A DNA stretch of 64,000 nt from a virus (taxonomy: Duplodnaviria; Caudoviricetes), in the IMG/VR virus record IMGVR_UViG_3300032240_001498, positions 1 to 64,000 of that record; one strand, written 5' to 3'. Position 1 is the stretch's first letter. Every line of letters starts with the position of its first letter. Below, in pieces: positions 4,837 through 25,252 of the stretch. The position numbers and the translations under genes were made by a program. The notes under the pieces were generated by a model. It was not told the DNA's origin. It did not search any database and worked only from the letters and a program-made list of their open reading frames with translations.

Positions 4837-5060
4837 TGAGCAAGGTCCAGATCGAGGGCCTTAACAACCGTCAGCGAGCCATCGCTGATGTGTTGTGGAT
4901 GATGCAGAGCCGGACAGAAGTTGAAGCATTCGTCCGGGCGCTTCATCCTAGCATGCGGGCCGATGCAGAGACCGTGGTAGAGATGATGATGTTGGCGGTG
5001 TGGGATGACATAGACACCGTGGACGAATCCACTAAATTAATGCTTGACAATCTCAAGTAA
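4836..5060 (+). CDS. hypothetical protein
   Basis: TAATG overlap at 4834-4838 fixes the start. Confidence 0.75.
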   Translation: MSKVQIEGLNNRQRAIADVLWMMQSRTEVEAFVRALHPSMRADAETVVEMMMLAVWDDIDTVDESTKLMLDNLK

Positions 5061-16279: not shown

Positions 16280-16851
16280 GGTAACGGGCTGATTTCATTC
16301 AGTAGGGTTGTTTCAATATTTCCACATGTGTAGTTAAAAGAAATAATTGTCTTGCGAATGTTTGACGATAGCCTAGGAGCTCTATGAATTACATGACTAG
16401 GGAATACTATAATATCTCCTTCAACTAGATCAGGAACTATCTTTATTTTTTGTGTTGTAGGATCCATCAATTCAGTGATAGGACTGCTGGGATCCATTTC
16501 TAAATAATAAACACCTACCCATGTTGAACCGTGAATATGCCAATTGTGTATGTCATTTTCTACATACTGTTGGAACCATAGATTTTCTATGTTAACATCT
16601 TTGTAACCTACTTGGTGCATCATTTGCACCAGTCGATGTTGTAGGATAGGAGCAAACAGTCTGACCCATGGACGGTCTACATTTTTACTGTCGCCCCAAT
16701 CAAGTTTATCAACACGATCGACATCATCACTGCCTGTGCGAGGATGTTCTGAAGGCCACCTATCAAGCAGAGACAGCAATCGATCTTTGATCATACTGTG
16801 CTGTTCTATCTTATCTACTAGATAGAACGAATTCATTTGATAAACTTGCAT
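16276..16851 (-). CDS. 2OG-Fe(II) oxygenase (TIGR02466-like)
   Basis: WFQQY...HNWHIH...GVYYL...EGDIIVFPSHVIH...RKTIISFN. Confidence 0.8.
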   Translation of the reverse strand: MQVYQMNSFYLVDKIEQHSMIKDRLLSLLDRWPSEHPRTGSDDVDRVDKLDWGDSKNVDRPWVRLFAPILQHRLVQMMHQVGYKDVNIENLWFQQYVENDIHNWHIHGSTWVGVYYLEMDPSSPITELMDPTTQKIKIVPDLVEGDIIVFPSHVIHRAPRLSSNIRKTIISFNYTCGNIETTLLNEISPLP

Positions 16852-18302
16852 TAGTCCTTCTCTGGATTAAGTCCTGCTAACAGTTCTCTAACCTTACTGC
16901 TACCTTGGACACCTTTAATCTTATTAATACCAATACCTTCTGTAGGATCTACAGATTTAATTTCACCTGTTTCTTTATCAATAACAGTTGATGTCTTTTT
17001 AAGATTAGCGTAGATACTTTCTCTAGGTTTAGCAAAGCCACCGTTGTCTTCATCTTCGAACAAGTCTTTAATTCTAAGTGTGTCAACGTCAAATTCCAAG
17101 TCAACCTTTTGACCTACGCCTGATGAGTTACGTGTCTTCATAAACTGGATCTGATAGCGTCCACGTTCCTTCATTGCTCGACTTGTAAAAATACCAATCA
17201 CGTTATCTGCTGTTTGAATCTTAGATAGTCCACCCGAAATATGACTGTGATCAAATTCAATTTCTTCAACTGCTGAACGATTCAACTGACTTGCAGTGAC
17301 AACAATAGCCTGTGTTTCCATAGCCAAGTTGCGCAGTTCTTCTGACACATATTTGTCCTTGACAAACAAGTCGCTTGGACTGACTTTGATACTCAACGGC
17401 ATCATTAAATCCAAATAGTCAATTAGAATAACGTCTGGCTTGTAGCCTTTTTTGACCTGATACTCTTTCAAATATGCACGGATGTCGTTAGCGTTCTTAC
17501 CACTTGGCATATATTTGATCTGTACACTACCAGATTTCTTTCCAGTCATCCTAACTTTAAGTTCTACGTCATCAAGACTCTTGAAAATTTCACGAGTTGG
17601 AATATCAGTAATCATACTATCCATACGCATGGCCACCAAATTTTCAGCCAATTCAAATGTTAGATACAAAACATTTAAACCTGCAAGTGCCCAGTTGATT
17701 CCTTGATTGGCTAAGAACAAACTCTTACCGCCACCTGACGCCGCACACCAAATGTTAAGTTCTCCGCGATTAAATCCACCATACAATTTCTTGTCAACGC
17801 TAGGCCATCCTGTGCTAACTTGACCGTTTGTGTTCTTCAATCCTTCAAGACGTTTACGTGGATCTTCAAAATAATCTGTACCCATGTCTTTCTGCAGACT
17901 AATCTGTACAGCATCCTTAATCATTTTTTCTACTGGACCGTAGTCGCCTTTATCCAACAGATCTGCTGATTTTAAAATTGCTCTTTCCAGTGCTTTGTGA
18001 CGTGAAAATTGCTCAAATTCTGCCATCAACCAATCATAGTTTTCCTTGGGCAGAGCCGCTGGATTTAAGTTGGTGTCGCACGATGCATTAACAATTGAAG
18101 CCTCTGGCATGACTTTGTATTCGTCGACATAATGTTTAATAAAGCCTGCTACGTCCTGCAATTTTCTGTCGAAATTTTCGGGGTCAAATATGTTGTTACA
18201 CCGAAAAAATGTCTCGGCATCGCTCATGAACATTTCAATGTAGAGCTTCTGAACGTCTGAACTGTAGTTAGGTATTTGATTAGTCGTCATGTTTGTTTTC
18301 AA
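16851..18302 (-). CDS. replicative DnaB-like helicase (T4 gp41-like)
   Basis: Walker A AASGGGKS, ILIDYLDLM, TASQLNR, KTRNS. Confidence 0.95.
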   Translation of the reverse strand: MKTNMTTNQIPNYSSDVQKLYIEMFMSDAETFFRCNNIFDPENFDRKLQDVAGFIKHYVDEYKVMPEASIVNASCDTNLNPAALPKENYDWLMAEFEQFSRHKALERAILKSADLLDKGDYGPVEKMIKDAVQISLQKDMGTDYFEDPRKRLEGLKNTNGQVSTGWPSVDKKLYGGFNRGELNIWCAASGGGKSLFLANQGINWALAGLNVLYLTFELAENLVAMRMDSMITDIPTREIFKSLDDVELKVRMTGKKSGSVQIKYMPSGKNANDIRAYLKEYQVKKGYKPDVILIDYLDLMMPLSIKVSPSDLFVKDKYVSEELRNLAMETQAIVVTASQLNRSAVEEIEFDHSHISGGLSKIQTADNVIGIFTSRAMKERGRYQIQFMKTRNSSGVGQKVDLEFDVDTLRIKDLFEDEDNGGFAKPRESIYANLKKTSTVIDKETGEIKSVDPTEGIGINKIKGVQGSSKVRELLAGLNPEKD

Positions 18303-19278
18303 GTTGTTTCTTTAAAAGTTTAATTTTTGTCTCGCCTGTCTCACGGTATTGTAAGATGGTGAAAAATGTGTAAATTCTGCCAAATTTCTTCACTGCATCT
18401 GCTACGTCTTTTACGTCTGGTCCCCAATCTGGCAAACTAACCGACCAATGATTGTCTATGGCCGCGGATATTAATTTAGCCCCAGGCTTGTCATTGTCAG
18501 GGACAATAATGACTTCACGCCCAAGTGCAGAAATTCGTGAAATTTGAGTGGGATTTGGCTCATTGTGCATGATAGCAACACCATCAACCGCAATGGCATC
18601 AAACTGTCCTTCGACAACTATCACAAATTTTCTATTTTCGTCTTGTCTGTCCAGGTTAAAAACGTATCCTGGTTGAGCAGTGGTCAAGTACTTTGGCTTG
18701 CCTTCCTTAATTTTTCGGGCTGTCCAGCCTACAACCACATTTTTATGAAAAAATGGCAAAATTACGCGATCCTTGTAACCAGCCTCTGGAGTCCACATCC
18801 AGTCATACCAGTCGAGCTCCATGCCACGGTCAAGTACATAGGCAATGACATTTAAAAAATCCTCATCCTCACAACCTTCGTCAATCCACTGATCTATGGT
18901 TTTGCAATTTTCTGGCAAATTTCGTGGTTCCAACCCAAAATTTAGGGGTATAGGTGTTTTGTCTAATTCTTCTTTATTCTTAAGTGCTTCCAGTGATAGC
19001 TTGCTGATGTCACTGTCTGGTACTCCCATCCACCTCATGAGATTTTTAGTATTTTTACTTAATAGTTTACCAGGCATCCACCCAGCTTTGAACCCACAGT
19101 TAAAGCAATGATATTGAAAACCGTCATCACCTGAGGTTTTTACGCCGCCACGTTGTCTCTTGTCTGGTGAGTCTCCGTTATGGACGCAACAAGGTGCGTT
19201 GAAGCTGATCCACCCACTTGGGGTTGCCTTTCTTTTCGGAGGTAAGAAGTTTATAAAGGTCGCTTGAATCAGGTTCAT
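18280..19278 (-). CDS. DNA primase (T4 gp61-like)
   Basis: Zn finger PCCVH...YHCFNC; TOPRIM VVEGQFDA and PDND. Confidence 0.92.
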   Translation of the reverse strand: MNLIQATFINFLPPKRKATPSGWISFNAPCCVHNGDSPDKRQRGGVKTSGDDGFQYHCFNCGFKAGWMPGKLLSKNTKNLMRWMGVPDSDISKLSLEALKNKEELDKTPIPLNFGLEPRNLPENCKTIDQWIDEGCEDEDFLNVIAYVLDRGMELDWYDWMWTPEAGYKDRVILPFFHKNVVVGWTARKIKEGKPKYLTTAQPGYVFNLDRQDENRKFVIVVEGQFDAIAVDGVAIMHNEPNPTQISRISALGREVIIVPDNDKPGAKLISAAIDNHWSVSLPDWGPDVKDVADAVKKFGRIYTFFTILQYRETGETKIKLLKKQLENKHDD

Positions 19279-19284
19279 GCAACT

Positions 19285-19313
19285 ATTTTAACTTCTAAAT
19301 AGGACTTTGTCAA
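19285..19313 (-). promoter_or_regulatory. sigma70-type promoter of primase, apparently leaderless
   Basis: Minus strand TTGACA, 17 nt, TAAAAT, 6 nt, ATG 19278. Confidence 0.75.
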
Positions 19314-20196
19314 GTTTTCCGTTGGGCCAGTATGGTTGTCCGGGAGTCGGATTACCAGGTACGCTGGCTCCGTACCAATTTGCACCAAGTGCGTCACCAT
19401 CTGGAATGTACTTGACTTTGAAATTGGTATAGTTACCATTTAGATTGACGTAGTCAACCCCGGTAAAACTGCGGTTATAAGGTATTGATTGCAGTAGAGC
19501 ATATGATTCATTTGCATTGCCCTGTCCACTAGGTGTATCTTCCAATGTTCCATAGATGTCTATATGTCCTTTGAATTTTGTTAGGTAAAATGCAAAAGTT
19601 TGCAGGCCATTATTTGAGTTAAATGCAGGATTTGCCTCAATAGTACCACTGCTAAATGTCCACCAATTGAATTGTGGTATACCTTGACGGTCAAGTGGGG
19701 AGTCTCGATACCAGTTGAACGCATCTGTTGAAAAACTTTCGGTCAAGAATGGCTCAACGTCTTCGCGAATCTCGGCCGTACCATTCACTCCATAATAAGT
19801 ATTGGAGTAGGTTGGGACGTAACTTCCGTCAGCGCCAAGAGCAGTAACACTAAAGGTGTATGTCTTGGGTGCAAGATCCATTGTGTCGCTTTCATCAAGA
19901 GTTAGAACAGCTAGGCCGCGTGTACTTGTAGTAACACCGTCGTCTATGATGGCTAATTCTTTTGGCTGGAACGGCATAATGTTATCGTGGTCGAACATTC
20001 TGAAGAAAAATGTGCCGCTTGAGATTGGGACTGGCTTTTGGTCTGAATTTTTAAACTGTATTTGGACCTTGTTTTTAAGTCCCTTCTGAAAAATAAGATT
20101 GCGTTGGTACATGACGTTGTTAACACCCCGTGAGTTATCCAGATCTAACGTGATAGCGTAAGAGTTGGTATATAAATAGATTGGTAATTTCTGCAT
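19288..20196 (-). CDS. hypothetical protein, probably virion structural
   Basis: TATAAATA 20203-20210 upstream; beta-rich composition. Confidence 0.7.
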   Translation of the reverse strand: MQKLPIYLYTNSYAITLDLDNSRGVNNVMYQRNLIFQKGLKNKVQIQFKNSDQKPVPISSGTFFFRMFDHDNIMPFQPKELAIIDDGVTTSTRGLAVLTLDESDTMDLAPKTYTFSVTALGADGSYVPTYSNTYYGVNGTAEIREDVEPFLTESFSTDAFNWYRDSPLDRQGIPQFNWWTFSSGTIEANPAFNSNNGLQTFAFYLTKFKGHIDIYGTLEDTPSGQGNANESYALLQSIPYNRSFTGVDYVNLNGNYTNFKVKYIPDGDALGANWYGASVPGNPTPGQPYWPNGKLDKVLFRS

Positions 20197-20216: not shown

Positions 20217-20606
20217 ATGAAGTCAAACAAAGATCAAGAATTCCAAAATAAGTTTCCTTTTATAAGTTGCATAAAAGTTAATGAAAACGAGTACGTTGGC
20301 ATTGTCATTAACAATGACGCCAACGTTACCAGCATCTACGACTTCAGCGTAATACGCACAGAATTTGAAAAATCCAGCTTTTTAGAGCTTGGAGAGACTT
20401 GGTGGTGGGAAAGTAATCGCAAAATTCCCATTAATATTTTCTTGAAGCAAGAAATGACTGTTTTTAGACCCTACATCAAAACATTCAACAGTAAAGACAT
20501 TGTAATACTGTTTGGTCCAACCGTAAATTTGAGCGAAATTGCAGAAAAACGCATCAAACGTAAATCAATACAATTAGTTAGAGCACCTAGGCGTAGGGAT
20601 AGCTAA
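20217..20606 (+). CDS. conserved hypothetical protein
   Basis: Lone plus-strand ORF; LGETWWWESNRKIPINIFL motif. Confidence 0.75.
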   Translation: MKSNKDQEFQNKFPFISCIKVNENEYVGIVINNDANVTSIYDFSVIRTEFEKSSFLELGETWWWESNRKIPINIFLKQEMTVFRPYIKTFNSKDIVILFGPTVNLSEIAEKRIKRKSIQLVRAPRRRDS

Positions 20607-21162
20607 TTGCTTCGCAGATTTGATTCATCTGCACCACAATCGCATGAGCATAGGCAACAGCATGACTTTTCTTAAAGTAGTAAGCGTCTTCTGTTTTAAC
20701 CCAGATTTCATCTTTCACTGCTTGGAAGCCCTTTTCACTGACAATCGAGACGAGATGCTTTTTCCCCGGTCTCAACAGGGCTAAAAACATTGCCAGTTCT
20801 TCAATACTTCTAGGTTTTAGTTCCGCTACCAAATTATGATATCCGTTTACATGGAATATCAAATCACAAAAATCCTTTTGTTCCAATAAATCCCATAATG
20901 GCTCAACAGCCAGCAGATCTTTGATGTGTTTTTCGCTTTTTATTGAATTGTACACACTGGCATTCAAAAAGTCTATCTTAAAATAGCCTCTATCTTCTGC
21001 TTCCTTGTAATCTATAGTAGATAATCCTGTTAAGGGGTTGTAGGGAATGGAATGACAGTACACACCTGTGTTATGTTTCTTATCTCCGTTGGTTGCCGTG
21101 ATCGTTTTCACTAGATCTAGTACTTTTGTTCTATCAGCAAAGTCGATATCAATATCTGGCAT
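20587..21162 (-). CDS. miniature DnaE/PolC-like (family C polymerase) protein
   Basis: PDIDIDF, YFKIDFL, ALLRPGK and YFKKSHAVAYA match DnaE motifs in order. Confidence 0.85.
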   Translation of the reverse strand: MPDIDIDFADRTKVLDLVKTITATNGDKKHNTGVYCHSIPYNPLTGLSTIDYKEAEDRGYFKIDFLNASVYNSIKSEKHIKDLLAVEPLWDLLEQKDFCDLIFHVNGYHNLVAELKPRSIEELAMFLALLRPGKKHLVSIVSEKGFQAVKDEIWVKTEDAYYFKKSHAVAYAHAIVVQMNQICEAISYPYA

Positions 21163-21857
21163 TACTCTATCCCACTTCCTTCACAAATTTCTCTCACAAC
21201 AGCAACATCTTCTTTGTGAGTTTTAAAATGTTTAACCCAATAGGGAATATCAAGTGCCTTGTCGATCAGTTCTAATTGCTCGTCATTGAAGTTTTCAAGC
21301 ATGCTCTTGCCACTTGAACAATTTAACATGACCCATGCAGAAATCTTGCCATTCTTGATGTCGTGTACTGCACGATTGAAATTGACATAGTTGAAATAAT
21401 GATTCCATTGAGCCCCACTGGTGTCGCCCCACTCAATCATTGTTGTAATAGTTCGCTGGCATGCGGCTTCAACTGGTTCTATCTTCAACATTTCATAAAG
21501 ATAGGTATCATACAGTTCGTCTCTGCACCAATGATCAAGTTTAATATCACTCTTGATCACAAATTCTATAAACTTTTCTGGATACAATGGATTTACATTG
21601 TTTAAGAAACTGCCAAATTTTACAAAGGCATTGTAGTATGCACTTTTGCAAAACTCGTCATAGGTTTTTTGCTTTTTTGAACCTTGTCTGATTTTATAAA
21701 ACTGATTGAACGCATAAAATCCACTCTGAACACGTTTCTCGTCCTTTTGCATTGCTCTACGCTTAGGTTCACACATGTGAGCAAACAAGGTCTTCTCTTT
21801 CATGAAGGCCTTGCCACAGTGACTACAATTAAAAGGTTGTTCAGCCAATTGGATCAT
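21162..21857 (-). CDS. conserved hypothetical protein with N-terminal C2H2-like Zn finger
   Basis: CSHCGKAFMKEKTLFAHMC. Confidence 0.75.
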   Translation of the reverse strand: MIQLAEQPFNCSHCGKAFMKEKTLFAHMCEPKRRAMQKDEKRVQSGFYAFNQFYKIRQGSKKQKTYDEFCKSAYYNAFVKFGSFLNNVNPLYPEKFIEFVIKSDIKLDHWCRDELYDTYLYEMLKIEPVEAACQRTITTMIEWGDTSGAQWNHYFNYVNFNRAVHDIKNGKISAWVMLNCSSGKSMLENFNDEQLELIDKALDIPYWVKHFKTHKEDVAVVREICEGSGIE

Positions 21858-22306
21858 TCGTATTCTTTTCGTTGTTTCTTATCGAAACCCATTTTATCAA
21901 ACAGTTCTTCTTTATCAGCCTTGGTCATCATCTTAGCCCATGCCTTGATGTCACTGAGCTTCATTGCAGGATTTAATTCTGCTAACAGCTTTTCAATTTT
22001 AACTGCTTTTTCTTTTGTGCCTGCTTTGAGATAGGGATGGTATGTCTTAACACCTGCGCCACAACCTGCAAACAGTTTCCACAGCAATTCTTTATGATTC
22101 TTGCTTAGAACCCAGTGATGTTTGTTTACAAGCTCGTTAGTTCTTTCTAAGAACCATTCTTGTAATTCAGTATCACCTTGTACATTGGAACTGTATCGCA
22201 TTAAAATAAATGGACTGAACTCTTTCTTTTCTTCGGGCGTAAGTTTACTATAGAAATCATAATCTCTCATGTCTATAGCGTTTAATTCTCGTTTGATGTC
22301 AAGCAT
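21854..22306 (-). CDS. clamp-loader small subunit-like protein (T4 gp62-like)
   Basis: KKEFSPFILMRYSS...NELVNKHHWVLSK.HKELLWKL pattern; replication context. Confidence 0.6.
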   Translation of the reverse strand: MLDIKRELNAIDMRDYDFYSKLTPEEKKEFSPFILMRYSSNVQGDTELQEWFLERTNELVNKHHWVLSKNHKELLWKLFAGCGAGVKTYHPYLKAGTKEKAVKIEKLLAELNPAMKLSDIKAWAKMMTKADKEELFDKMGFDKKQRKEYE

Positions 22307-23105: not shown

Positions 23106-23798
23106 TCAATCCTTTATTATTATACTTTTTAATCTTTGATAGGCCATGACAGGATTTAATGAAAAATTCCACTTGGAAAACTTGCGTGAAAATACTTCAG
23201 GTGTCATAACATCTAATTTTAATTCCCAATCTCTTTCAGTTAAAGGAATTAAATGCGCCATAGGTGTTCCTGCCTTAACATTTAACATTATACTTGATTG
23301 CGGCTTTTTAATCAAGCAGTTTATGTTACTTTCGTGTTGATATCTAAACTCGGATATACCTGTAACTGTGGTAAATTCTTGAGGATTATTTTGCCACCAT
23401 ATTGGTTGTGACCACATCCATTCAATCGGTTCACTGCACCAAATATACCAAGGTGATACAAATTTTATATTGGTGTAGCCGGGCCAGGCGCCAGCGGCTT
23501 GTACGTTTACATTATGGACTTCGGCAGGACTTATATTATTAAATCTCATACCAGAATCTATATTACCAGTTCCGTCATTGTTGATTGCAATCGAGTAATC
23601 TGCCCACAGGGGAATTATCATACCCTTGGAAAACAACTCTTTAGCGGCAGGACATTGTCTTACATTTTTTACATCTTCGCCAGGTTTACCAGGAAGTCTT
23701 TTAAACCAGTCAGGGACAGCTTCCTCAGCTTTGGTAATAGGAAATAAGTCGATCAGCATGCCAGATGGTGCATACGCTTCAACTATGATCTTACTCAT
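23106..23798 (-). CDS. DUF6065-like hypothetical protein
   Basis: PDWFK..P...VRQCPA...GMIIPLWAD...KFVSPW...AGTPMAHLIP. Confidence 0.55.
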   Translation of the reverse strand: MSKIIVEAYAPSGMLIDLFPITKAEEAVPDWFKRLPGKPGEDVKNVRQCPAAKELFSKGMIIPLWADYSIAINNDGTGNIDSGMRFNNISPAEVHNVNVQAAGAWPGYTNIKFVSPWYIWCSEPIEWMWSQPIWWQNNPQEFTTVTGISEFRYQHESNINCLIKKPQSSIMLNVKAGTPMAHLIPLTERDWELKLDVMTPEVFSRKFSKWNFSLNPVMAYQRLKSIIIKD

Positions 23799-25252
23799 GG
23801 AGTTTTAACCTTTTCAATTGAAAAGGGATACTTAGCTTCTTTATAAAACTTTTTGCGTTCTGTTAGGTGTCGTTTGGCGTATTTGGTGTTCGCTGTGATG
23901 TCCCAGATTTGTACGAAGTCTTTATCTTCTGCTTTGCGAATACCTCGTCCAATACTTTGTATAACTCTAACAAAGCTCTTTCCGGCTTCCAAAAGAACCA
24001 AATTAAAAATACGAGGGATATTAATACCCACAGCGGCCACACCATAAGTCGCCACAATAATCTTGTCATCATTAGTTGCCACTTCACGATATTGTTCCTT
24101 GCGTTTTGTTGATTTAATTTTACCACTGATAAAAACCGCTTCAGGAATCTCGTTAATGATAAACTCTCCTGTTTCGATCCTATCTACTAATACCAAGGTG
24201 TTGCCAGTATCCGCAATTCCCTTGACTAACTTACTGACCCATTCCATTCTAGTATCATCGGTAACAAGATACTTTAATTCTTCAGGGTAAGTTTGGAATT
24301 CTTTCCATTCTTGTGTTTGAATTACATTAACGTGGCATGTACTTAGGATACCTTTTTCTTGTAATTCGTGTGCAGTAACATAACCTACTACTTGCCCAAG
24401 ACTACACTTAATGCTTTCAAATTCAAGCGGATCTTTAGGAACAGTACCGGTTAGTCCCCAACGGATAGGAGCATTGCGCAGGTTCTGTGTTAATAAATTC
24501 TTTAATACTTCTGCTTTGGCTTGGTGAACTTCGTCAACAATAATACAGCTAACACCCTCAAGGAACTCAGCTAATGTAATAAGGTCGGCTTGTCCGTTTT
24601 TACTTTTCTTATCTAAGATATTAAGTGACTGCCAAGTACAAATGGTATGTGTTTTACCTAGATCTTTACGATCGCCGTAGTATACACCAACATCAAGACC
24701 TACGTTAACATAATCTTCTTCAGTTTGTTCTACAAGACTTTTGTTTGGAACAATAACTAGACTTCGGCCGTATTTTTCACAAATCTTACTCAAGGTAGCA
24801 GTCATAATAGTCTTACCTGCACCTGTTGCCACTGACTGTAATGCCTGTGGATTTTCTAAGAATGTGTTGACTACTTCAACTTGGTCGTCACGCAACCTAA
24901 TAGGCTCTCCTGCAAAGCGATGTCCTTCAGGCCAACATAGATCGCCCCAAAAGTCTTCTTTGATTTTTTCAAATTCTAATACAGGGCTAACTCGTTCGTC
25001 TTCTACTTCAATATAATACCCCTGACTTTCTAAGTAGGGCAATATTTGATCAAGCATACTAACATAGGTAGTACCGCCAAGTCCAAAGAAAGAGGTACAC
25101 CCGTCCCATCGACCTAGTTTGTATGCAGGTTGATAACGGGCGGCCTGATTAAAATACTTGAACTTCTTAACTAATTCTTTTCTAGTATCTAAATCTAAAT
25201 TCTCAAATTTTACGTTGACCTCATCTCTGATGATCAATTTTGCGGTAGACAA
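23795..25252 (-). CDS. uvsW: UvsW-like SF2 DNA helicase
   Basis: RDDQ, ATGAGKT, IVDEVH, LTGT, QSIGRGIR. Confidence 0.92.
   Translation of the reverse strand: MSTAKLIIRDEVNVKFENLDLDTRKELVKKFKYFNQAARYQPAYKLGRWDGCTSFFGLGGTTYVSMLDQILPYLESQGYYIEVEDERVSPVLEFEKIKEDFWGDLCWPEGHRFAGEPIRLRDDQVEVVNTFLENPQALQSVATGAGKTIMTATLSKICEKYGRSLVIVPNKSLVEQTEEDYVNVGLDVGVYYGDRKDLGKTHTICTWQSLNILDKKSKNGQADLITLAEFLEGVSCIIVDEVHQAKAEVLKNLLTQNLRNAPIRWGLTGTVPKDPLEFESIKCSLGQVVGYVTAHELQEKGILSTCHVNVIQTQEWKEFQTYPEELKYLVTDDTRMEWVSKLVKGIADTGNTLVLVDRIETGEFIINEIPEAVFISGKIKSTKRKEQYREVATNDDKIIVATYGVAAVGINIPRIFNLVLLEAGKSFVRVIQSIGRGIRKAEDKDFVQIWDITANTKYAKRHLTERKKFYKEAKYPFSIEKVKTP

What the first reader, a model, noticed from the sequence alone, without database searches (positions are those of the whole stretch)
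20587..21162. 191-aa mini family-C DNA polymerase retaining all three catalytic aspartates
Seen: PDIDIDF, YFKIDFL, RPG and YFKKSHAVAYA in DnaE order within 191 aa. Established: in E. coli DnaE, PDFDVDF and KFDFLGL supply the three catalytic Asp, and GFNKSH lies in the fingers of a protein over 1100 aa with PHP, clamp-binding and OB domains. Inference: this is either a minimal palm/fingers polymerase, one piece of a split PolC whose partners may be the coupled ORFs 21162-22306, or a decoy of host Pol III. T4-like phages normally use a B-family polymerase, and none is in this window.
Basis: partly seen in the sequence, partly recalled or inferred. Interest (0 to 1): 0.7.

Follow-up and report, generated by a model that had tools for sequence, protein, structure and literature searches.

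The report
Half of a split phage polymerase
This 191-residue gene is a real, strongly conserved gene, but it is only the second half of a two-piece, stripped-down DNA polymerase III-type enzyme already described in giant phages; its first half lies 163 kb away in the same genome, which also has an ordinary B-family polymerase.

Summary
It is not a stand-alone polymerase, a decoy or a remnant. It is the C-terminal unit (phrog_11778) of the split minimal Pol III alpha that Iyer et al. 2021 (PMC7824862) described in group 2.2 jumbo phages.

- **Partner.** The 173-aa N-terminal unit carries the GS motif (phrog_11127). It lies at 184,098-184,619 of the same 200.6-kb virus record. The adjacent ORFs are not polymerase pieces.
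- **Fit to E. coli alpha.** Predicted folds of the two units match residues 278-393 and 400-781, so they abut.
- **B-family polymerase.** An intact 889-aa PolB lies at about 162 kb.
- **Conservation.** The Asp, Lys and Arg-Pro residues are invariant in 85 diverse homologues. dN/dS is 0.05-0.13.

Three results add to the paper:
- A natural 375-aa fused form exists.
- Clostridium phages have a full-size DnaE split at the same point by an HNH homing endonuclease gene.
- Of the E. coli alpha dNTP and template contacts, the steric-gate His, the stacking Tyr and the Arg-Pro are kept. Arg390 is an invariant Glu, and the index-finger basic cluster and the body of the thumb are missing.

Catalytic activity is untested. 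This scan had already reached the same conclusion from the N-terminal half of this genome (e1-5364905). It is a new member of a known kind, of modest interest.

The parts
20587..21162 (-). C-terminal unit of the split minimal Pol III alpha (191 aa). It carries the DxD strand (D3, D5, D7), K62/D64, R131-P132, and the helix-loop-helix with Y161, F163 and H167.
   Evidence: phrog_11778 E 1.7e-62. Invariant D3, D5, K62, D64, R131, P132 in 85 homologues. AF2 pLDDT 95.9. VIA Z 9.4-9.8 on 3f2c 971-1296, 2hnh 400-781 and 3e0d 461-838. dN/dS 0.05 against L009, median 0.125 over 185 pairs. Its partner, the N-terminal unit, lies outside the window at G000:C1:184098-184619, minus strand.
21162..21857 (-). 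231-aa protein with a C2H2-zinc-finger-like N-terminus (phrog_11058). It is the upstream neighbour and its TAA stop overlaps the ATG of the polymerase unit by one base. It is a conserved neighbour, not a polymerase piece; a role as an accessory factor is only a possibility.
   Evidence: Weak zf-C2H2 hits below the Pfam cut-off. phrog_11058 E 3.7e-57. Present upstream in 81 of 84 related loci. It is also 1-nt-overlapped in the divergent contigs L091-L093. Atlas neighbours are viral C2H2-type hypothetical proteins.
21854..22306 (-). 150-aa protein of unknown function (phrog_11758), second upstream neighbour. No polymerase similarity.
   Evidence: Found in 67 of 84 related loci.
20217..20606 (+). 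129-aa convergent gene (phrog_11637) whose 3' end overlaps the 3' end of the polymerase unit by 20 bases. It is the most constant neighbour.
   Evidence: Found in 83 of 84 related loci. It is also seen, weakly, downstream of the fused form.
18280..19278 (-). DnaG-type primase (332 aa), part of the conserved replication module downstream.
   Evidence: ORF. Homologues are annotated as DNA primase in Paride and 121Q. Found in 74 of 84 loci.
16851..18302 (-). DnaB/gp41-like replicative helicase (483 aa), part of the conserved replication module.
   Evidence: ORF. Homologues are annotated as DnaB-like helicase. Found in 65 of 84 loci.
23795..25252 (-). UvsW-like SF2 helicase (485 aa), the upstream end of the conserved module.
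   Evidence: ORF. Its homologue in 121Q is annotated UvsW-like. Found in 68 of 84 loci.

Best explanation
The ORF encodes the C-terminal half of a two-polypeptide, minimal family-C (Pol III alpha-type) nucleotidyltransferase of group 2.2 jumbo phages. The N-terminal half is 173 aa and is encoded 163 kb away on the same strand. It supplies the first part of the Pol-beta-type palm, including the GS motif (R142, G143, S144) that holds the sugar and triphosphate of the incoming nucleotide. This ORF supplies the next strand with the two metal-binding Asp (D3, D5), the strand with K62 and the third Asp (D64), the Arg-Pro that contacts the templating base, and the helix-loop-helix with the base-stacking Tyr (Y161) and the steric-gate His (H167). 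The two proteins are translated separately and assemble non-covalently into one active site. No intein or intron joins them. The enzyme has no PHP domain, no body of the thumb, no index-finger basic cluster, no clamp-binding domain and no OB domain. Shown here: homology, the complementary abutting halves, co-occurrence, a natural fusion, purifying selection and the replication-module context. Inferred: that the heterodimer forms, and that it is a template-directed, dNTP-selective DNA polymerase of low processivity working beside the phage's B-family replicase at the fork or in repair.
For: 1. Family: phrog_11778 over the full length, found in 96 jumbo-phage genomes. Iyer et al. 2021 describe exactly this split minimal Pol III alpha in group 2.2 phages.
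2. Partner in the same record: PF07733 positions 19-97 match at 184 kb and positions 99-121 match at this ORF. The 173-aa ORF scores phrog_11127 E 1e-46 and PF07733 42 bits, above the cut-off. Its GVGRGSS.AS motif is invariant in 48 of 48 sequences and it always ends at ..EFLK.
3. The halves abut on solved structures: N model residues 74-173 match E. coli alpha 278-393 (Z 9.3-10.5) and C model residues 1-188 match 400-781 (Z 9.7).
4. Rosetta-stone fusion: P0194 (375 aa) is phrog_11127 (8-180) followed by phrog_11778 (190-374). The full-length DnaE profile phrog_405 aligns straight across the junction.
5. A split at this point occurs independently: Clostridium phage CS266P1 encodes PHP + PF07733 2-102, then an HNH endonuclease, then PF07733 103-260 + fingers + HHH.
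6. Selection: dN/dS is 0.05 against the closest relative, with a median of 0.125 over 185 pairs.
7. Active-site inventory against the E. coli ternary complex (preprint 10.64898/2026.06.29.735100). Kept: R362/G363/S364, D401/D403, K553/D555, R639/P640, Y754, F756, H760. H760 is the steric gate against rNTPs.
8. A 94%-complete relative has exactly two DnaE pieces, no PHP and a PolB.
9. The gene sits in a conserved block running UvsW ... primase-DnaB.
Against: No biochemical or genetic data exist for any member that I could find. The N-unit model alone has low confidence at the GS loop. Several residues that matter in E. coli alpha are missing. The Arg390 position (R390A lowers catalytic efficiency 27-fold) is an invariant Glu (E170, 48 of 48). 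Arg396 has no counterpart at the break. The segment with Arg709, Arg710, Lys714 and Lys715 (about 642-739) and the body of the thumb (within about 417-537) are deleted. Such an enzyme might bind DNA poorly or act on another substrate. The fused form rests on one 2.4-kb metagenome contig.
Confidence: 0.82

Rival explanations
1. It is a catalytically active two-piece nucleotidyltransferase but not a template-directed DNA polymerase. It could be a tailing enzyme or terminal transferase, or a maker of a nucleotide signal, built on the Pol-beta-type fold it shares with such enzymes.
For: It lacks the body of the thumb, the index-finger basic cluster, the Arg390 and Arg396 equivalents and any clamp-binding part. 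The phage already has a complete PolB.
Against: It keeps residues that only make sense with a templating base and a deoxyribose: R131-P132 (E. coli R639-P640, within 4 A of the templating nucleotide), Y161 (Y754, stacks on the incoming base) and H167 (H760, steric gate), together with K62 (K553, primer phosphate). The gene lies in a primase-helicase module.
Confidence: 0.1
2. It is a stand-alone 191-aa minimal palm/fingers polymerase that needs no partner.
For: All three carboxylates and the finger motifs lie in this one ORF. The model folds confidently on its own.
Against: The GS motif and the preceding part of the catalytic fold (E. coli 278-393), which contact the dNTP, are absent here and are supplied by a separate gene that co-occurs in the same phages. 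A natural fusion joins the two.
Confidence: 0.03
3. The adjacent coupled ORFs (231 aa and 150 aa) are the missing polymerase pieces or obligatory subunits.
For: The stop of the 231-aa gene overlaps this gene's ATG by one base. The adjacency holds in 81 of 84 loci and in very divergent contigs. A zinc-finger-like DNA binder could stand in for the missing thumb.
Against: Neither ORF shows DnaE or PolC similarity. In many relatives 1-4 kb of unrelated sugar-nucleotide genes separate the 231-aa gene from this one. The whole block is a conserved module, so adjacency alone says little.
Confidence: 0.12
4. It is a decoy or inhibitor that mimics host Pol III alpha to hijack or block host replisome partners.
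For: The similarity is to the host-type replicase, and the phage replicates with a PolB.
Against: The parts of alpha that bind epsilon (PHP), the clamp and tau are all absent. The catalytic residues are invariant, which a decoy would not need.
Confidence: 0.02
5. It is a pseudogene remnant or assembly artefact, or the halves are joined by protein or RNA trans-splicing.
For: The short size, and the precedent of the cyanobacterial DnaE joined by a split intein.
Against: dN/dS is 0.05-0.13, the start and stop are conserved in 79 of 81 loci, and thousands of homologues have the same length. There is no room for intein halves and no intein family hit. No intron or other Rfam family lies around either gene.
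Confidence: 0.02

Closest known systems
Split minimal DNA polymerase III alpha of group 2.2 jumbo phages (Iyer, Anantharaman, Krishnan, Burroughs, Aravind 2021, Viruses 13:63, PMC7824862); C-terminal unit = phrog_11778, N-terminal unit = phrog_11127
   Same: Same family and same architecture. Two stand-alone proteins are encoded by distant genes: an N unit that binds the NTP and a C unit with the Mg and template-binding parts. No other Pol III domains are present and a family B polymerase lies in the same genome.
   Different: This copy comes from an uncultivated 200-kb virus record and is only 40-48% identical to isolates. Added here: a natural fused form, an independent split at the same site by a homing endonuclease gene, selection figures, and a residue-by-residue inventory. 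The paper reports no fused form.
Bacterial Pol III alpha (DnaE) and PolC; structures 2hnh, 3e0d, 3f2c
   Same: Pol-beta-type palm with the GS motif and three carboxylates, K553, R639-P640, and the helix-loop-helix with the Tyr and the steric-gate His, all in the same order. The fold match has Z 9-10 over nearly the whole of both units.
   Different: About 364 aa in two chains against 1160 aa in one. It has no PHP, no body of the thumb, no segment ~642-739 (index-finger basic cluster), nothing beyond ~781 (rest of the fingers, clamp-binding, OB and tau-binding parts), and Glu in place of Arg390. The first 73 residues of the N unit have no counterpart.
DnaE in pieces in Clostridium phages CS266P1-P4 (found here; records annotate the parts as hypothetical proteins)
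   Same: The break falls at the same point, between the ..F.RF(L/M).. helix and the DxD strand (PF07733 positions 102|103 against about 95|99).
   Different: The halves are full-size (PHP + palm-N; palm-C with thumb + fingers + HHH). They are adjacent and separated only by an HNH homing endonuclease gene, in a 44-kb genome.
Cyanobacterial split DnaE joined by a split intein (e.g. PMC2664965)
   Same: A family-C polymerase encoded as two distant genes.
   Different: There the break lies elsewhere and intein halves ligate the two parts. Here there are no intein sequences and no space for them.

Membership tests
Split minimal Pol III alpha of group 2.2 jumbo phages, C-terminal unit (phrog_11778) | Full-length similarity to the family profile, about 190 aa | tested here: met
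   E 1.7e-62, residues 3-185 on profile positions 8-194 of 197. The listed homologues are almost all 187-198 aa.
Split minimal Pol III alpha of group 2.2 jumbo phages, C-terminal unit (phrog_11778) | Carries the Mg-binding carboxylates and template-binding motifs, beginning at the DxD strand | tested here: met
   D3, D5, K62, D64, R131 and P132 are invariant in 85 sequences; H167 is present in 83 of 85.
Split minimal Pol III alpha of group 2.2 jumbo phages, C-terminal unit (phrog_11778) | A separate N-terminal unit with the GS motif is encoded at a distant locus of the same genome | tested here: met
   G000:C1:184098-184619 (minus strand), 173 aa, phrog_11127 E 1e-46, 163 kb away. The units are 30-224 kb apart in isolates and about 175 kb apart in a 94%-complete relative.
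Split minimal Pol III alpha of group 2.2 jumbo phages, C-terminal unit (phrog_11778) | The genome also encodes a classic family B polymerase and no other Pol III domains | tested here: met
   An 889-aa PolB with exo and pol domains. No PHP or further finger piece in the 200 kb held, which is 55% complete. The same holds in a 94%-complete relative.
Family C DNA polymerase catalytic subunit (DnaE/PolC) | Pol-beta-type palm with GS motif and three catalytic carboxylates | tested here: met
   Met only by the two proteins together.
Family C DNA polymerase catalytic subunit (DnaE/PolC) | Finger helix-loop-helix with base-stacking Tyr and steric-gate His; Arg-Pro at the templating base | tested here: met
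   Y161 (64/85), F163 (71/85), H167 (83/85), R131-P132 (85/85), mapped through.
Family C DNA polymerase catalytic subunit (DnaE/PolC) | N-terminal PHP domain | tested here: not met
   No PF02811 match in the record or in a 94%-complete relative; the control search hit 14 of 14 genomes.
Family C DNA polymerase catalytic subunit (DnaE/PolC) | Thumb domain, complete fingers, clamp-binding and OB domains | tested here: not met
   The model spans E. coli 400-781 with only about 180 aligned residues. Segments of about 417-537 and 642-739 are reduced to about 34 and 11 residues, and nothing lies beyond about 781.
Family C DNA polymerase catalytic subunit (DnaE/PolC) | Template-directed DNA polymerase activity | not testable with these tools
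Split-intein DnaE (cyanobacterial type) | Intein N and C fragments at the break | tested here: not met
   The N unit ends at ..EFLK and the C unit starts MPDIDIDF. There are no intein families in Pfam scans and the ends are conserved.

The most novel reading that the evidence does not exclude
The two-piece mini Pol III is a dedicated primer-extension ('initiator') polymerase. It takes over the RNA primers made by the bacterial-type DnaG primase encoded two genes downstream and hands them to the phage PolB. This would be functionally like B. subtilis DnaE or eukaryotic Pol alpha (both from my own knowledge). The translationally coupled C2H2-zinc-finger-like 231-aa protein would serve as the DNA-gripping part that replaces the lost thumb. 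A phage fork would then mix a family-C starter with a family-B replicase.
Probability: 0.12. Interest if true: 0.7.

Novelty: new member of a known kind. Interest (0 to 1): 0.35.

Why it matters
At about 364 residues in two chains, this is the smallest known version of the bacterial replicase active site. It is abundant in uncultivated giant phages, with thousands of sequence clusters. If it is active, it defines the minimal parts a family-C polymerase needs, and it shows a phage fork using both family B and family C enzymes. For this scan the main result is corrective. The gene is explained by a 2021 paper, its partner is far away rather than next door, and the phage does have a gp43-type polymerase. 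The natural fusion and the homing-endonuclease-split DnaE give a concrete route by which such a gene in pieces arises. They also provide ready constructs for a first biochemical test.

Tried and rejected
- **Search for more fused forms.** The word-index search for longer proteins found none, which the tool itself rates as weak evidence. A scan of IMG/VR with the fused protein also found none. Only 1 of the 150 best representatives is fused.
- **Joint alignment for folding the fused form.** I aligned the fused protein with both sets of halves, but MAFFT put the N units on the C half. I dropped this alignment and folded the two units separately.
- **Single-sequence search against PDB sequences.** It gave only chance-level hits; the family profile was needed. 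Foldseek alone gave E about 5e-3 to DnaE; the VIA second look gave the clear result.
- **Homing endonucleases upstream of the C unit in relatives.** I expected them in the 1-4 kb inserts, but the inserts are sugar-nucleotide genes instead.
- **DnaQ-type exonuclease partner.** None was found in the 200 kb held; the record is 55% complete, so this is not evidence of absence.
- **Tree to decide whether fused or split is ancestral.** The fused form nests among split forms with weak support (SH-aLRT 88) and the outgroup branch is long, so the direction is unresolved.
- **Rfam scan around both genes.** It found nothing.

Full report
**Observation.**
The minus-strand ORF 20587-21162 is 191 aa and starts MPDIDIDF. 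The four motifs are present in DnaE order: PDIDIDF at 2-8, YFKIDFL at 60-66, RPG at 131-133 and YFKKSHAVAYA at 162-172. Pfam gives only a sub-threshold DNA_pol3_finger hit. PHROGs gives a full-length match to phrog_11778, annotated 'DNA polymerase' (E 1.7e-62). tblastn finds the gene at 39-48% identity in 96 isolated jumbo phages, including Atu_ph07, Phosso, the PA5oct group, GAP32, CBB, 121Q and PBECO4.

**What it is.**
The window is the first 64 kb of a 200,604-base IMG/VR virus record estimated 55% complete. Scanning the record with PF07733 (the Pol III alpha NTPase domain) gives two places. Profile positions 19-97 match at 184 kb and positions 99-121 match at this ORF.

The 184-kb place is a 173-aa ORF at G000:C1:184098-184619 on the minus strand. 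It scores above the Pfam cut-off (42 bits) and matches phrog_11127 over its full length (E 1e-46). In 48 homologues its GVGRGSS.AS motif is invariant and the protein always ends at ..EFLK. So the catalytic fold is cut between the GS-motif half and the DxD strand, and the two halves lie 163 kb apart on the same strand.

This is what Iyer et al. 2021 (PMC7824862) reported for their group 2.2 jumbo phages. [quoted passage not shown] The record indeed has an intact 889-aa PolB with exonuclease and polymerase domains at 161,572-164,241. It has no PHP domain.

A 94%-complete relative of 345 kb shows the same picture: exactly two DnaE pieces about 175 kb apart, no PHP, and one PolB. In isolates the two units are 30-224 kb apart. 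An earlier agent of this scan, starting from the N-terminal half, reached the same reading (e1-5364905). I re-derived it independently here.

**Structure.**
The AlphaFold2 model of the C unit is confident (pLDDT 95.9). Nearly all of it (180-186 residues) superposes on the following, at Z 9.4-9.8 and rmsd 3.4-3.8 A:
- Geobacillus PolC 971-1296
- E. coli alpha 400-781
- Thermus alpha 461-838

The best unrelated chain scores Z 3.0.

The N-unit model is weaker (pLDDT 80.9, low at the GS loop). Its residues 74-173 superpose on E. coli alpha 278-393 at Z 9.3-10.5. Its first 73 residues match nothing. The halves therefore abut on the bacterial enzyme.

A profile of 85 C units aligns in order with E. 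coli alpha at 398-416, 538-641 and 740-769. Two stretches of alpha are therefore strongly reduced, and everything beyond about 781 is absent:
- About 417-537, which holds the body of the thumb, is reduced to about 34 residues.
- About 642-739 is reduced to about 11 residues.

**Is it functional?**
At least 8000 clusters at 90% identity exist, and 388 representatives at 50% identity. In 85 diverse sequences, down to 30% identity, D3, D5, K62, D64, R131 and P132 are invariant. D7 is present in 84 of 85 and H167 in 83 of 85. Across 73 distinct genes from IMG/VR, dN/dS is 0.05 against the closest relative, with a median of 0.125 over 185 unsaturated pairs. 79 of 81 loci start at the same ATG. The remnant and artefact readings are excluded.

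**Do the halves work together?**
Four lines of evidence bear on this:
- **Co-occurrence.** Largely the same phages carry both units (96 and 100 records).
- **Natural fusion.** P0194 is 375 aa, with phrog_11127 at 8-180 and phrog_11778 at 190-374. The full-length DnaE profile phrog_405 aligns straight across the junction. It sits upstream of a convergent phrog_11637-like gene (weak match), as the C unit does here. It rests on one 2.4-kb contig. On a quick tree it nests among split forms with weak support, so I cannot say which state is ancestral.
- **Independent split.** In Clostridium phage CS266P1 a full-size DnaE is broken at the same point. The order is a 412-aa protein (PHP + PF07733 2-102), an HNH endonuclease gene, then a 508-aa protein starting MDIDVDF (PF07733 103-260, fingers, HHH). 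This shows that a break here occurs in another phage. It also suggests the origin: a homing endonuclease gene inserted at the most conserved codons, followed in the jumbo lineage by separation of the halves. That origin is inference.
- **No joining mechanism.** There is no intein and no intron or other Rfam family near either gene. Assembly would be non-covalent.

I could not model the complex.

**Likely mechanism.**
A 2026 preprint on the E. coli Pol III ternary complex (10.64898/2026.06.29.735100) lists the residues around the incoming dNTP and the templating base. The alignments map them onto the phage units.

| E. coli alpha residue | Role | Phage unit equivalent |
|---|---|---|
| R362, G363, S364 | GS motif, contacts dNTP | N unit R142, G143, S144 (48/48) |
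| D401, D403 | metal-binding carboxylates | C unit D3, D5 (85/85) |
| K553, D555 | primer phosphate; third carboxylate | K62, D64 (85/85) |
| R639, P640 | at the templating nucleotide | R131, P132 (85/85) |
| Y754 | stacks on the incoming base | Y161 (64/85) |
| F756 | within 4 A of the dNTP | F163 (71/85) |
| H760 | steric gate against rNTPs (also PMC8485763) | H167 (83/85) |
| R390 | R390A lowers catalytic efficiency 27-fold | invariant Glu E170 (not kept) |
| R396 | can potentially interact with dGTP | no counterpart at the break |
| R709, R710, K714, K715 | index-finger basic cluster | in the deleted segment |

Keeping the templating-base contacts, the stacking Tyr and the sugar gate argues for template-directed dNTP addition rather than some other nucleotidyl transfer. 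Losing the body of the thumb, the basic cluster and all clamp-binding parts argues for weak, distributive DNA binding unless another protein helps. The invariant K134 after R131-P132 might partly replace the lost basic residues; this is speculation.

**Context.**
The block has this order: UvsW-like helicase, 192 aa, 97 aa, 150 aa, 231 aa, [C unit], convergent 129 aa, 302 aa, primase, DnaB-like helicase. It is kept in 80 IMG/VR loci and in Atu_ph07, Paride and 121Q. The 231-aa protein has a C2H2-zinc-finger-like start. Its stop overlaps the C unit's ATG by one base (TAATG). The same arrangement is seen in very divergent contigs. But 1-4 kb of sugar-nucleotide genes intervene in many relatives. 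It is not a polymerase piece. A role as an accessory DNA binder is possible but unsupported.

**Verdict.**
- Its 'split polymerase' option is right, but with the wrong partners.
- The stand-alone and decoy options are not supported.
- The phage does have a B-family polymerase.
- The thing is a new member of a published kind. No activity has been reported in the papers I could search.

Noticed in passing
L089 (Clostridium phage CS266P1, OP172775.1 14053-19499) 1766-5334: A full-size phage DnaE is encoded in two pieces broken just before the DxD strand, with an HNH (HNH_3) homing endonuclease gene between them. All three are annotated as hypothetical protein or endonuclease. Related records CS266P3 and P4 also match.
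   Followed up: partly
L008 1066-2193 (ENA metagenome contig, protein P0194): A natural single-chain form of the mini Pol III (375 aa, N unit + 9-residue linker + C unit). It is the only fused one among the 150 best representatives.
   Followed up: partly
L011, L012, L028, L061, L072, L075: the 2-4 kb just upstream of position 5001: In several relatives a cassette of sugar-nucleotide-type genes sits between the 231-aa gene and the polymerase unit. By their N-terminal motifs the genes look like a cytidylyltransferase, an NAD-dependent epimerase, a cupin and a PfkB-kinase. The window lacks this cassette. A cytidylyltransferase-like ORF also lies near the N unit (L001 164-670).
   Followed up: no
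window 20217-20606 (+) against 20587-21162 (-): Convergent genes overlap by 20 bases at their 3' ends. The 129-aa partner (phrog_11637, unknown function) is the most constant neighbour, present in 83 of 84 loci.
   Followed up: no
window 21162-21857 (-): A viral C2H2-zinc-finger-like protein family (phrog_11058) of unknown function is translationally coupled to the polymerase unit, across very divergent phages.
   Followed up: partly
window 19288-20196 (-): A 302-aa protein with weak similarity to virion structural proteins (phrog_14467, E 1.3e-7) sits inside the replication module, between the polymerase unit and the primase. Homologues in 121Q and Atu_ph07 are annotated as virion structural.
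   Followed up: no
L001 894-1304 (-), i.e. G000:C1:183488-183898: A GroES/Cpn10-like co-chaperonin gene lies two genes downstream of the N-terminal polymerase unit.
   Followed up: no
protein P0222 (233 aa): The first ~110 residues of a C unit continue into a tail that looks like a pseudouridine-synthase-type sequence. This is probably a chimeric contig or a truncated gene.
   Followed up: no
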